Shown: positions 27,941-31,000 of the stretch, in pieces
How the letters are laid out: each line of letters opens with the position of its first letter
Position numbering within the stretch: position 1 is the stretch's first letter
Source of the DNA: Trypanosoma brucei
Taxonomy: Eukaryota
DNA length: 64,000 bases
Reading direction: 5' to 3'
Assembly: GCA_000002445.1 (NCBI GenBank)
Contig: CM000208.1
Location: 2,208,001 to 2,272,000, forward strand
Made by a program: the position numbers and the translations under genes
Notes under the pieces: generated by a model
Told to the model about the DNA's origin: nothing
The model's database searches: none
Seen by the model: the letters and a program-made list of their open reading frames with translations, nothing else

Positions 27941-28062
27941 CTTCTTGTGTTCGGTATTTTTCTTTCCTTTCCTCTTTTTTCCTTCTTCTCCTATCATTAT
28001 TATTACCATTGTTGCTGACATTCTTGTACCTGTGGTTCTAACCCTCTCTGTGCTATCGTCTT
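27941..28062 (+). promoter_or_regulatory. polypyrimidine tract + AG (predicted SL trans-splice acceptor region) upstream of IleRS long-form ATG
   Basis: About 120 nt are more than 80% C/T (ctctttcacatttgcacttcttgtgttcggtatttttctttcctttcctcttttttccttcttctcctatcattattattaccattgttgc...) followed by AG dinucleotides just 5' of ATG 28069. This is the canonical kinetoplastid trans-splicing signal. Confidence 0.5.
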
Positions 28063-28068
28063 GTCCAA

Positions 28069-31000
28069 ATGAATCGATGCTACTCCCTCCTTTGTTCCGT
28101 GCTGAACAGCGGTAAACGTGCCCAAACGAGTTTCCCGTCGACACGGCGTACCGTAATTCACTCACGTGTGTTGCCAAGCGAATCCATAACGTCTTCCTTT
28201 TCTCCACCGGAAACCACAACAGCATCAAAAGATAAATCTAGAGGGGAGGCAGCGAGTAAAACCACGATGACTGGACCACTACAAAACTTTGGCGATGAAC
28301 TTAACTTCCCAAAAATGGAAGAAGAGGTGCTGAAGCACTGGGAGGATATCGATGCATTCAAAGAATGTCTTAAGCAATCAGAAGGAAAGAAACCGTACAC
28401 ATTTTACGACGGACCGCCATTCGCGACGGGGTTGCCACATTACGGGCACCTCTTGGCTGGCACCATTAAGGATATCGTGTGTCGCTATGCCCATCAAACT
28501 GGCCATCACGTCGACCGCCGGTTTGGCTGGGATTGCCACGGGCTCCCCATTGAGTTTGAAATTGACAAGGAATATGGAATTAAATCTTCGCATGATGTGA
28601 AGAAGATGGGCATCGAAAACTACAACAACGCATGCCGCGCCATCGTGATGCGTTTTTCGGAGGAGTGGCGTAAAACTGTGACACGCATGGGGAGGTGGAT
28701 CGACTTTGACAACGACTACAAAACGATGTATCTCTCGTACATGGAAAGTGTTTGGTGGGTGTTCAAAAGTCTCTGGGATAAGGGTCTCGTGTACAGGGGA
28801 TTTAAGGTGATGCCCTTCTCAACGGCTTGCACCACTCCCCTCAGTAACTTCGAGGCCAACTTGAACTACAAGGACGTCAGTGACCCTTCACTAATGGTTA
28901 CCTTCAGGACTAAAGATGACCCGAACACATTCCTTATAGCTTGGACAACAACACCGTGGACACTTCCAAGCAACCTGGCGCTTTGCGTTCATCCGGATAT
29001 CGACTACGTTAAGGTCCTTGACAGCAAGACAAAACGTCACTACATCTTTGGCGAACCGCGACTTGGGGAGGTTTATCCCAAGAAGAAAGGCGATGGCAAG
29101 AAGGGCACGGAGGCATCCCCGTATACTATTGTCAGTCGTATGAAGGGGAAGGAGCTTGTCGGGACAAAATACGAACCGCTGTTTCCCTACTTTGAGGAGA
29201 AATATGGAGCCACCGCGTACCGTGTGCTGTGTGACGCGTACGTAGCGACGGACTCTGGCACGTGTGTTGTGCACCAGGCCCCCGGGTTTGGTGAGGAAGA
29301 TAATCGCATATGCATCGACAGCGGTGTTATAACGAAGGAGGATATGCTTTGCCCTGTCGATGAAAATGGTTCTTTCACCCCAGATGTGGTGGATTTCCAG
29401 GGTCGTTACGTGAAGGAAGCCGACTCAGACATTATCAAGTACTTGGAGTCAAAGGGACTTGTCCATAGTAAGGGATCCATTGTTCACAGTTACCCATTCT
29501 GCTGGCGCAGCGAAGCACCGCTGATCTATAAGGCGGTTGACACGTGGTTCGTGAAAGTGGAGTCTTTGCGTGAGCAACTTCTTTCTGCGAATGAGGAAAC
29601 GGAGTGGGTACCCGACTTTGTTAAGGTTAGGCGTTTCTCCAACTGGCTTGCCGACGCCAAAGACTGGAACGTTTCCCGTAACCGCTACTGGGGTACTCCC
29701 CTTCCTATTTGGCACAGCGAAGACTGGGAGGAGGTTGTGTGCGTTGGTAGTGTGGCTGAACTGGAAGAACTTTCCGGCACGAAGGGGATCACCGATATTC
29801 ACCGCCATTTCGTTGATCAGTTAACGATCCCAAGTAAGCGCCCGGGTATGCCCCCACTGCGTCGCGTGGAAGTGGTCTTTGATTGCTGGTTCGAGTCGGG
29901 CTCCATGCCCTATGCGCAGATTCACTACCCGTTCGCGGCTAAGGATAGTTTCGTTGGGGAAAAGTTCCCTGCGGATTTTGTGGCAGAAGGTCTCGACCAA
30001 ACACGCGGCTGGTTCTACACGATGCTTGTTCTCGGCGTTGCCCTCTTTGGGCGGGCCCCTTTCAAAAATGTTGTTGTGAACGGACTTATTCTTGCCGAGG
30101 ACGGTAAAAAGATGAGCAAACGACTGAAGAACTACCCCGAGCCTGGAATCATCATAAATACGCACGGTGCAGACGCTCTGCGTATGTACATGATCAATTC
30201 CCCGGTGGTGCGGGCGGAACCATTGCGCTTCAGGGAACAGGGTGTAAAGGGCATTGTCAGAGACGTGATGCTACCTCTGTTTAATGCCGCAAAGTTTTTT
30301 ATTGCGAATGCCAACTACTGCGTGGAGTTGGGTGGAAACGTGGCGACCGATGTTGTGAGCTCCAATGAAATGGACCGCTGGATTTTGGCGTCGACGCAAA
30401 CGCTTCAACAATACGTAAAGCGTGAGATGGAAAAGTACCATCTATACAATGTCGTTCCCGGGGTCCTTCGGTTCGTTGTGGATCTTTCCAATTGGTACGT
30501 TCGTATGAACCGCCGTCGTATGAAAGACACTGTTGACTTGGAGGACCGCTCGAGGGCACTCTCGACAATGTTGAACGTTCTTTTTGCTGTTTCCCGTATT
30601 ATTGCCCCTATTGCTCCGTTTGTTGCAGAAATGTTGTACCTACGCATCAAACCACTGCTTCCACAGGAGCAGCAGCTTAAATCGGTGCACTTTCACATGT
30701 TCCCGGAGGACGACATATCGAAGCATGACGAAGTGTTAGAGCGTGCTATGACTCGTATGGTCACCATTGTCGAGCTTGCTCGTGTTCTTCGAGATCGCAT
30801 GGTTATTCCTATGAAGCGACCGGTGCGTCAAGTTGTCGTTGTTCATCCTGACGAGGCGTACCTTGATGACGTTCGGAAAGTGGTTACGTACATCAAGGAG
30901 GAGGTGAGTGCCTTTGAGGTTGTTCTTTCCTCCAGTGATGAATACGTCACAACCCAACTGGATGCGAGCATGGAAAACTTGGGTAAACTCTACCGCAACG

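What the first reader, a model, noticed from the sequence alone, without database searches (positions are those of the whole stretch)
27941..28300. IleRS has two in-frame starts separated by a presequence-like 66-aa segment and an internal pyrimidine/AG. This suggests dual mitochondrial/cytosolic targeting via alternative trans-splicing.
Seen in sequence. ATG 28069 and ATG about 28267 are in frame. The intervening peptide (MNRCYSLLCSVLNSGKRAQTSFPSTRRTVIHSRVLPSESITSSFSPPETTTASKDKSRGEAASKTT) is basic and hydroxylated with acidic residues only at its distal end, which fits a mitochondrial presequence. The conserved synthetase body begins exactly at the second Met. A strong polypyrimidine tract precedes the first ATG, and a shorter one (cgtcttccttttctccacc...acaacAG) lies inside the extension upstream of the second ATG. 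Established knowledge: trypanosomatids encode a single IleRS that serves both compartments, and in T. brucei the two isoforms have been reported to arise from alternative trans-splicing. The arrangement here is consistent with that mechanism being conserved in this genome. If so, the ratio of the two splice sites is a regulatory point.
Basis: partly seen in the sequence, partly recalled or inferred. Interest (0 to 1): 0.55.

Follow-up and report, generated by a model that had tools for sequence, protein, structure and literature searches.

The report
Known dual-targeted T. brucei IleRS gene

Summary
ORF 28069-31500 (+) has a second in-frame ATG at 28267, 66 codons after the first. The 66-residue extension is basic and Ser/Thr-rich, with no acidic residue before position 38. 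A 14-nt pyrimidine tract (28192-28205) and an AG (28221-22) lie inside it.

The 1143-aa protein is identical to T. brucei TREU927 IleRS (Tb927.10.9190). The window is therefore T. brucei chromosome 10 itself, not a relative.

Rettig et al. 2012 (PMC3273800) showed experimentally that this gene yields two mRNAs. A long trans-spliced mRNA encodes the mitochondrial form with its presequence. A shorter mRNA, 3-4 times more abundant, encodes the cytosolic form.

One detail needs correction. The strong 36-nt pyrimidine tract before ATG1 (27957-27992) has no AG between it and ATG1. The long-form acceptor lies upstream of 27887, probably near 27733-27762, so this tract sits inside the long 5'UTR.

The layout (presequence, coding pyrimidine tract, AG, no ATG until the second Met) recurs in seven other kinetoplastids, including Bodo saltans.

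Verdict: correct, already known, low interest.

The parts
27705..27762 (+). Candidate upstream SL-acceptor region for the long (mitochondrial) mRNA. It holds pyrimidine runs at 27705-27713, 27715-27729 and 27749-27757, and AGs at 27733, 27759 and 27761.
   Evidence: One search gives the runs and AGs. The long-variant qPCR amplicon starts at 27887. The RNAi fragment '-307 to +141' corresponds to 27762-28209. The exact acceptor is inferred, not mapped here.
27763..28068 (+). [quoted passage not shown] The 5' end is approximate. It contains no upstream ATG.
   Evidence: No ATG occurs between 27662 and 28068.
27823..27864 (+). (CA)21 microsatellite inside the long 5'UTR. Another T. brucei isolate contig has 11 units.
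27898..28107 (+). AG-free stretch; the gap between successive AGs is 211 nt. It spans the 36-nt pyrimidine tract and ATG1. It is the second-longest of 3606 AG-to-AG gaps in the window.
27957..27992 (+). 36-nt pure pyrimidine tract. It lies inside the long 5'UTR and has no AG before ATG1. The first AGs after it are at 28108, 28129, 28177 and 28221, all between the two ATGs.
   Evidence: It is the longest such tract in the window outside large ORFs.
28069..28266 (+). N-terminal extension of 66 codons, starting at AUG1. It carries the mitochondrial presequence; MitoProt predicted cleavage after residue 43.
   Evidence: MitoProt 0.81 with a 43-aa signal (Nilsson 2010 Table S7). MitoProt 80% and TargetP 90% (Rettig 2012). 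The extension is conserved in kinetoplastids.
28192..28205 (+). Internal pyrimidine tract TCTTCCTTTTCTCC, encoded as Ser42-Ser43-Phe44-Ser45-Pro46.
28221..28222 (+). Internal AG splice acceptor of the short (cytosolic) mRNA.
   Evidence: The published SL-junction primer maps at 28223-28232. The paper states the second AUG lies 44 nt downstream of the second acceptor, and 28267 minus 28223 is 44.
28223..28266 (+). 44-nt 5'UTR of the short mRNA, with no ATG in it.
28267..31500 (+). Short ORF from AUG2: cytosolic IleRS, 1077 aa, 123.5 kDa. It is a eukaryotic-type class I enzyme with an HYGH motif and a KMSKR motif.
   Evidence: Pfam PF00133, PF08264 and PF19302 hit the near-identical 1077-aa product (one or two substitutions) in other isolates.
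31501..32083 (+). 3'UTR up to the apparent major poly(A) site, 583 nt.
   Evidence: Kolev 2010 Table S13 row for Tb10.6k15.1220 gives 2240083 and 583. The window offset of 2,208,000 comes from Table S1. The column headings of Table S13 were not read, so this is a moderate-confidence reading.

Best explanation
This is the single eukaryotic-type isoleucyl-tRNA synthetase gene of Trypanosoma brucei (Tb927.10.9190). The polycistronic precursor receives the 39-nt spliced leader at one of two places.

- Upstream acceptor: it lies more than 180 nt 5' of AUG1, probably at the AGs at 27733-27762 behind the pyrimidine runs at 27705-27757. Splicing there gives a long mRNA whose first AUG is 28069. It is translated into a 1143-aa precursor with an N-terminal presequence. 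The precursor is imported into the mitochondrion and trimmed to about 126 kDa.
- Internal acceptor: this is AG 28221-22, 16 nt after the coding pyrimidine tract 28192-28205. Splicing there removes AUG1 and leaves a 44-nt leader whose first AUG is 28267. The product is the 1077-aa cytosolic enzyme.

The short mRNA is 3-4 times more abundant, partly because it is more stable.

Shown by others in experiments: the two mRNAs, the two isoforms, their locations, and the link between the long mRNA and the mitochondrial isoform. Shown here: identity of the locus, exact mapping of the published junction and amplicons, the sequence signals, and conservation of the layout. Inferred: the exact upstream acceptor, and any role of the 36-nt tract.
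For: - Identity: the 1143-aa product matches XP_823143.1 / Q38A55_TRYB2 exactly. ORF coordinates match Tb927_10_v4 2236069-2239500 at a constant offset.
- Experiments in Rettig 2012: two spliced variants; two HA-tagged bands that fractionate with mHSP70 or with eEF1a; 5'UTR-specific RNAi removes only the long mRNA, the mitochondrial isoform and mitochondrial Ile-tRNA charging.
- Primer mapping: the SL-junction primer maps at 28223, the long amplicon at 27887-28022 and the short-variant partner primer at 28343-28361.
- Masses: the masses I computed, 125.8 kDa after removing 43 residues and 123.5 kDa for the short form, match the paper.
- Collinearity: the short form lines up with the N-terminus of human cytosolic IleRS.
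- Rarity: an internal pyrimidine run of 14 nt or more is rare in coding sequence here, about 0.011 expected per 198 nt.
- Conservation: seven other kinetoplastids show a presequence (MxRC... and RTVI[YH]S), a pyrimidine tract, an AG and no ATG until the second Met. Pyrimidine runs of 10 nt or more are 10 times denser in the extensions than in the CDS bodies.
Against: - No transcript data could be examined directly here. The two Logan contigs that carry a 1077-aa gene call are genomic, not cDNA.
- Kolev 2010 Table S1 gives a 5'-most SL site at window 28036. That position is not preceded by AG and does not match Rettig's long variant. This remains unexplained.
- RNAi against the long variant caused no growth defect, so how much the cell needs the mitochondrial isoform in culture is open.
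- The amphipathic-helix signal in my simple test is only modest: 8.9% of shuffles reach the observed hydrophobic moment.
Confidence: 0.95

Rival explanations
1. A single mRNA makes both isoforms by leaky scanning or alternative translation initiation at AUG1 and AUG2. Alternative trans-splicing would then be irrelevant.
For: Two in-frame AUGs with only one out-of-frame ATG (28077) between them would in principle allow leaky scanning. Dual targeting of synthetases by alternative initiation is known in yeast and plants (established knowledge, also cited).
Against: An SL junction between the two AUGs was used as a specific qPCR primer and maps exactly. Northern blots and spliced-leader trapping show two mRNAs. 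RNAi against the long-specific 5'UTR left the cytosolic isoform unchanged.
Confidence: 0.03
2. The first ATG is an annotation error. The 66 codons are only 5'UTR or intergenic sequence, and only the short protein exists.
For: Kolev 2010 lists the gene among ORFs with a 'misannotated start codon, SAS within the ORF'. Gene callers picked the second ATG in two isolates, in T. grayi and in L. donovani. The short mRNA is the major one.
Against: The frame stays open and the peptide is conserved (MxRC, RTVI[YH]S) from Bodo to Leishmania and Trypanosoma. A larger mitochondrial isoform was detected and depended on the long mRNA.
Confidence: 0.02

Closest known systems
T. brucei IleRS (Tb927.10.9190): dual targeting by alternative trans-splicing (Rettig, Wang, Schneider, Ochsenreiter, NAR 2012; predicted in Nilsson et al. 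2010)
   Same: It is the same gene. The protein is identical, the published SL junction falls at 28223, there are 44 nt from the acceptor to AUG2, the published amplicons map exactly, and the predicted isoform masses agree.
   Different: Nothing of substance differs. I add that the 36-nt pyrimidine tract before AUG1 has no AG before AUG1 and lies inside the long 5'UTR. I also add that the long 5'UTR holds a (CA)n repeat whose length differs between isolates.
Other T. brucei and L. tarentolae synthetases proposed or shown to use the same mechanism: AsnRS, ProRS, GluRS, GlnRS (Nilsson 2010 Table S7; JBC 2021 review, PMC8319005)
   Same: A single gene, an N-terminal presequence, a major SL site inside the annotated ORF and a minor site upstream.
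   Different: These are different enzymes. For most of them only transcript mapping is available, not isoform localisation.
Dual targeting of synthetases by alternative translation or transcription starts in yeast and plants (for example yeast HTS1 and VAS1; from my own knowledge)
   Same: One gene and two in-frame AUGs. The long form carries a presequence and the short form is cytosolic.
   Different: In those cases the two 5' ends come from alternative transcription start sites or leaky scanning. Here they come from spliced-leader addition at alternative acceptors on a polycistronic precursor.
T. cruzi LYT1 alternative trans-splicing (cited in Nilsson 2010)
   Same: Alternative SL acceptors include or exclude an N-terminal targeting signal.
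   Different: The protein is unrelated, and the signal is secretory or nuclear rather than mitochondrial.

Membership tests
Eukaryotic/archaeal-type class I isoleucyl-tRNA synthetase | Class I catalytic core with HIGH-type and KMSKS-type motifs, and full-length similarity to cytosolic IleRS | tested here: met
   HYGH and KMSKR are present in the translation. Human cytosolic IleRS 9w01_B scores E=5.7e-109 over the first 280 aa. Pfam PF00133, PF08264 and PF19302 hit the same product.
Dual targeting by alternative trans-splicing (T. brucei IleRS type) | One gene with two in-frame AUGs that bracket an N-terminal extension absent from cytosolic homologues | tested here: met
   ATG at 28069 and 28267, 66 codons apart. 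Human Met1 aligns to residue 70.
Dual targeting by alternative trans-splicing (T. brucei IleRS type) | The extension has the properties of a mitochondrial presequence | tested here: met
   Residues 1-37 have a net positive charge, no acidic residue and 27% Ser/Thr. The hydrophobic moment is 0.53 for residues 1-18, reached by 8.9% of shuffles. Dedicated predictors could not be run here. Published values are MitoProt 0.80-0.81 and TargetP 0.90.
Dual targeting by alternative trans-splicing (T. brucei IleRS type) | An SL acceptor between the two AUGs, with AUG2 the first AUG of the short mRNA | tested here: met
   Pyrimidine tract 28192-28205, AG 28221-22 and no ATG in 28223-28266. The published SL-junction primer maps at 28223. 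Actual use of the site rests on the paper's experiments, not on reads examined here.
Dual targeting by alternative trans-splicing (T. brucei IleRS type) | A second SL acceptor upstream of AUG1 | tested here: inconclusive
   The long-variant amplicon at 27887-28022 and the RNAi fragment starting at 27762 place the acceptor upstream of 27887. Candidate AGs are at 27733, 27759 and 27761. The exact site is not given in the text available to me, and Kolev's value of 28036 conflicts with it.
Dual targeting by alternative trans-splicing (T. brucei IleRS type) | The long isoform is in mitochondria, the short isoform is in the cytosol, and each depends on its own mRNA | not testable with these tools
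   Published for this gene: digitonin fractionation, 5'UTR-specific RNAi and tRNA charging assays.
Dual targeting by alternative trans-splicing (T. brucei IleRS type) | No separate mitochondrial-type IleRS gene in the genome | not testable with these tools
   Only a 64-kb window is available. Rettig 2012 reports a single IleRS gene in the T. brucei genome.

The most novel reading that the evidence does not exclude
The whole arrangement may be ancestral to Kinetoplastea: presequence, then a pyrimidine tract written in Ser/Pro/Phe/Leu codons, then an AG, then an ATG-free leader of about 45 nt, then the second Met. If so, it is kept by selection at the nucleotide level, including in free-living Bodo saltans. 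In T. brucei, a lineage-specific 36-nt pyrimidine tract with no AG before AUG1 would additionally drive the acceptors between the two AUGs. Together with the polymorphic (CA)n in the long 5'UTR, it would set the ratio of mitochondrial to cytosolic enzyme.
Probability: 0.35. Interest if true: 0.3.

Novelty: already known. Interest (0 to 1): 0.1.

Why it matters
The mechanism is a well-known illustration of how trypanosomes get two compartment-specific proteins from one gene. They lack gene-specific promoters and have almost no introns, and their mitochondrion imports all of its tRNAs. IleRS is also a drug target candidate.

Because this is the very gene in which the mechanism was demonstrated, the finding adds no new biology. 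Its value is as a check that the first-stage reader can recognise a real alternative trans-splicing signal from sequence alone.

The modest additions made here are:
- a corrected view of which pyrimidine tract serves which acceptor;
- truncated gene models in T. grayi and L. donovani;
- the recurrence of the layout as far out as Bodo.

These could help annotation of kinetoplastid synthetase genes.

Tried and rejected
1. I hoped the two 1077-aa 'short form' proteins in the 90% cluster (Logan runs ERR7929161 and ERR7929164) came from SL-capped cDNA contigs. They are genomic contigs. One matches the window at every aligned base over 27840-28330 and the other differs at a few positions outside the extension, and the short start is only the gene caller's choice.

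2. A homologue search with just the first 180 aa returned only short fragments of eukaryotic IleRS and no kinetoplastid full-length proteins. The full-length query was needed.

3. I looked for exact SL-site coordinates in older transcriptome papers. Nilsson 2010 Table S7 gives only the MitoProt score and tags per million. Kolev 2010 Table S4, which lists all acceptor sites, is truncated in the stored copy. Kolev's Table S1 gives a puzzling 5' end at window 28036. No supplements are held for Rettig 2012.

4. A synonymous-codon resampling test asked whether the pyrimidine tract exceeds what the peptide composition gives. Per species the result is only weak to moderate (P = 0.0013 to 0.51). Most of the enrichment therefore comes from the Ser/Pro/Phe/Leu-rich peptide, and the species are not independent.

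5. The papers on hnRNP F/H, SLaP mapper and L. mexicana cite the case but add no data on this gene.

6. Leaky scanning and a misannotated start were considered and rejected on the published RNAi and junction evidence and on conservation of the extension.
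Full report
**What is in the sequence**

The + strand carries an ORF from 28069 to 31500 of 1143 codons. A stop lies 9 codons upstream of its first ATG. 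The second in-frame ATG is at 28267, exactly 66 codons later. The only other ATG between them, at 28077, is out of frame.

Residues 1-37 hold six Lys/Arg, one His, ten Ser/Thr and no acidic residue. The first acidic residue is Glu38. The hydrophobic moment of residues 1-18 is 0.53 at 100 degrees, a value reached by 8.9% of shuffles, so that signal on its own is modest.

Against solved structures, Met1 of human cytosolic IleRS (9w01_B, E=5.7e-109) aligns to residue 70. The form starting at Met67 is therefore collinear with a normal cytosolic IleRS to within three residues.

Inside the extension there is a pure pyrimidine run, TCTTCCTTTTCTCC, at 28192-28205. The next AG is at 28221-22. Sense-strand pyrimidine runs of 14 nt or more occur only twice in about 35 kb of large ORFs in this window. 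Both lie at the 5' edge of ORFs whose mechanical start is TTG or GTG. About 0.011 such runs are expected in 198 nt.

**Identity of the locus**

The 1143-aa translation is found letter for letter in the protein collection as XP_823143.1 / EAN78315.1 / Q38A55_TRYB2, the isoleucyl-tRNA synthetase of T. brucei brucei TREU927. The same sequence is deposited for T. equiperdum.

Kolev et al. 2010, Table S1, list this ORF under its old name Tb10.6k15.1220 at Tb927_10_v4 2236069-2239500. Both ends differ from the window coordinates by exactly 2,208,000. The window is therefore T. brucei chromosome 10 itself.

All 22 ORFs of 250 aa or more in the window are on the + strand, and there are no tRNA genes. 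This is what one expects of a trypanosome polycistronic unit.

**What is already known about this gene**

Rettig, Wang, Schneider and Ochsenreiter (NAR 2012, PMC3273800) studied exactly this gene, Tb927.10.9190. They reported the following.

- It is the only IleRS gene in the genome and is of the eukaryotic type.
- Spliced-leader trapping and northern blots show two mRNAs, the short one 3-4 times more abundant.
- The second AUG lies 44 nt downstream of the second acceptor.
- MitoProt (80%) and TargetP (90%) predict a presequence, with cleavage predicted after residue 43.
- A C-terminally HA-tagged protein gives two bands. The larger fractionates with mitochondrial HSP70 and the smaller with cytosolic eEF1a.
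- RNAi against the long-specific 5'UTR removes the long mRNA, the mitochondrial isoform and mitochondrial tRNA-Ile charging only.
- The long mRNA is less stable (time to 50% decay about 22 min against 66 min).

Nilsson et al. 2010 had predicted the case earlier (Table S7: MitoProt 0.81, 43-aa signal).

**Mapping the published reagents onto the window**

- The short-variant junction primer is CTGTACTATATTG|CATCAAAAGA. Its first part is the 3' end of the spliced leader, and its second part matches 28223-28232. The exon therefore starts at 28223, directly after AG 28221-22.
- The partner primer maps at 28343-28361.
- The long-variant amplicon maps at 27887-28022.
- The 448-bp '5'UTR' RNAi fragment, which I read as -307 to +141, corresponds to 27762-28209.
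- The masses I computed are 125.8 kDa after removing 43 residues and 123.5 kDa from Met67, matching the paper's 125.9 and 123.5 kDa.

The 'strong polypyrimidine tract' before ATG1 is real. It is 36 pure pyrimidines at 27957-27992, the longest such tract in the window outside large ORFs. However, no AG occurs between 27898 and 28107. The AG-to-AG gap of 211 nt is the second longest of 3606 in the window. That tract therefore has no acceptor ahead of ATG1.

Because the long mRNA already contains 27887-28022, its acceptor must lie upstream of 27887. The likely place is the group of AGs at 27733, 27759 and 27761, behind the pyrimidine runs at 27705-27729 and 27749-27757. This agrees with the -307 start of the RNAi fragment, but it is an inference.

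The 36-nt tract thus sits inside the long 5'UTR. The first AGs after it (28108, 28129, 28177, 28221) all lie between the two ATGs, and using any of them would give the cytosolic protein. Whether this tract helps drive the internal site is open.

The long 5'UTR has no upstream ATG. It does contain a (CA)21 repeat at 27823-27864, which has only 11 units in another isolate's contig.

**Related sequences**

A full-length search retrieved IleRS from ten further Trypanosoma species or subspecies and from Angomonas, Strigomonas, Leptomonas, Leishmania, Porcisia, Novymonas, Phytomonas, Bodo saltans, Trypanoplasma and Diplonema.

In an alignment of the N-termini, all long gene models among the trypanosomatids and Bodo start with M-x-R-(C/R/S/H/T), except Angomonas, which begins MFCT. 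The trypanosomatid models share a motif, (A/S)RRTVI(H/Y)S, and Bodo has KTTIYQ at that place. Each has a further in-frame Met 2-30 residues before the conserved GPLxNF that opens the enzyme body.

I fetched DNA for seven species. T. grayi and L. donovani are annotated from the short Met, yet the upstream frame is open and encodes MLRC...RTVIYS. Those models are therefore truncated.

In all eight species, including T. brucei, the extension shows the same order of elements:
- a pyrimidine run of 10-21 nt;
- the next AG 10-40 nt later;
- no ATG in any frame between that AG and the second Met.

The implied short 5'UTR is 44-48 nt in five of the eight species.

Pyrimidine runs of 10 nt or more are ten times denser in the extensions (7.2 per kb) than in the enzyme bodies (0.72 per kb). 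A naive Poisson test gives P about 2e-9, but the species are related, so this overstates the evidence.

Resampling synonymous codons shows that much of the enrichment follows from the Ser/Pro/Phe/Leu-rich peptide. Per-species P values range from 0.0013 to 0.51.

Published data agree in part. Rettig et al. mention two spliced isoforms in T. cruzi, data not shown. In L. tarentolae only two SL-containing nanopore reads were obtained for IleRS, and both were of the short type. A genome-wide study found that this kind of proteome diversification is not general in trypanosomes, with IleRS as the accepted exception.

**What could not be settled**

I could not look at transcript reads. The two Logan contigs behind the 1077-aa cluster members are genomic.

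Kolev's Table S1 places the gene among ORFs with an acceptor inside the ORF. Yet it prints a 5'-most SL site at 2236036, which is window 28036. That position is 33 nt upstream of ATG1, is preceded by GG, and lies in the middle of the AG-free stretch. The complete site table is truncated in the stored copy. This may be a non-AG site, mispriming on TTCTTGTACCTGTGG (which resembles the SL 3' end), or a table convention. I leave it unexplained.

**Verdict**

The mechanism was demonstrated experimentally in 2011-12 for this very gene, so the novelty class is 'already known' and interest is low.

The rival readings are contradicted by the published junction, by the isoform-specific RNAi and by conservation of the extension. 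Those rivals are leaky scanning from one mRNA and a misannotated first ATG.

Noticed in passing
window 27957-27992 and 27898-28107: The 36-nt pure pyrimidine tract just upstream of ATG1 lies in a 211-nt AG-free stretch that runs past ATG1. The first AG after it, at 28108, is already inside the ORF. In T. cruzi, T. vivax, T. theileri, L. donovani and Bodo, AGs do occur between the nearest upstream pyrimidine tract and ATG1, so this layout looks specific to T. brucei.
   Followed up: partly
window 27823-27864; L002 1105-1126: A (CA)21 microsatellite sits inside the long-variant 5'UTR. A contig from another T. brucei isolate has 11 units, which may reflect real polymorphism or collapse in a short-read assembly. 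Rettig et al. postulated an unidentified destabilising element in this UTR.
   Followed up: partly
window 28036: Kolev et al. [quoted passage not shown] That position is preceded by GG, not AG, and conflicts with the long variant of Rettig et al. The genomic sequence just upstream, TTCTTGTACCTGTGG, resembles the SL 3' end, so mispriming is possible.
   Followed up: partly
window 28141-28167 (residues 25-33, TRRTVIHSR); alignment: The presequence motif (A/S)RRTVI(H/Y)S is conserved across Trypanosoma, Leishmaniinae, Angomonas and Strigomonas, and is recognisable in Bodo saltans as KTTIYQ. This is unusually strong conservation for a mitochondrial presequence. It may mark the processing site or an import determinant.
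   Followed up: no
L006 1255-1500 (T. grayi); L007 1117-1500 (L. donovani): The public gene models for IleRS start at the short Met, although an intact upstream in-frame extension (MLRC.../MLRS...RTVIYS) is present. The mitochondrial form is therefore missing from those annotations. L. guyanensis, Novymonas and Phytomonas models are also short, but I did not check their DNA.
   Followed up: partly
L003-L009, extensions between ATG1 and ATG2: The implied 5'UTR of the short mRNA, from the first AG after the coding pyrimidine tract to the second Met, is 44-48 nt in T. brucei, T. cruzi, T. theileri, T. grayi and Bodo. It is 35 nt in T. vivax, 70 nt in T. rangeli and 139 nt in L. donovani. It never contains an ATG.
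   Followed up: partly
window 32285-33526; L003-L006 downstream genes: The gene downstream of IleRS in T. cruzi, T. vivax, T. theileri and T. grayi is a NERD-domain (PF08378) protein of 411-426 aa. The 413-aa ORF at the matching position in the window is probably its orthologue; I did not scan it against Pfam.
   Followed up: no
window 8631-8785, 37507-37677, 46447-46610, 60771-60926, 61539-61766: These are the other AG-free stretches of 150 nt or more on the + strand. They may mark further trans-splice acceptor regions of neighbouring genes.
   Followed up: no
window 15394-15407 and 40070-40086: These are the only other sense-strand pyrimidine runs of 14 nt or more inside large mechanical ORFs. 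Both lie near the 5' end of ORFs whose listed start is TTG or GTG, so they are probably upstream of the true ATG, in splice-acceptor regions rather than coding sequence.
   Followed up: no
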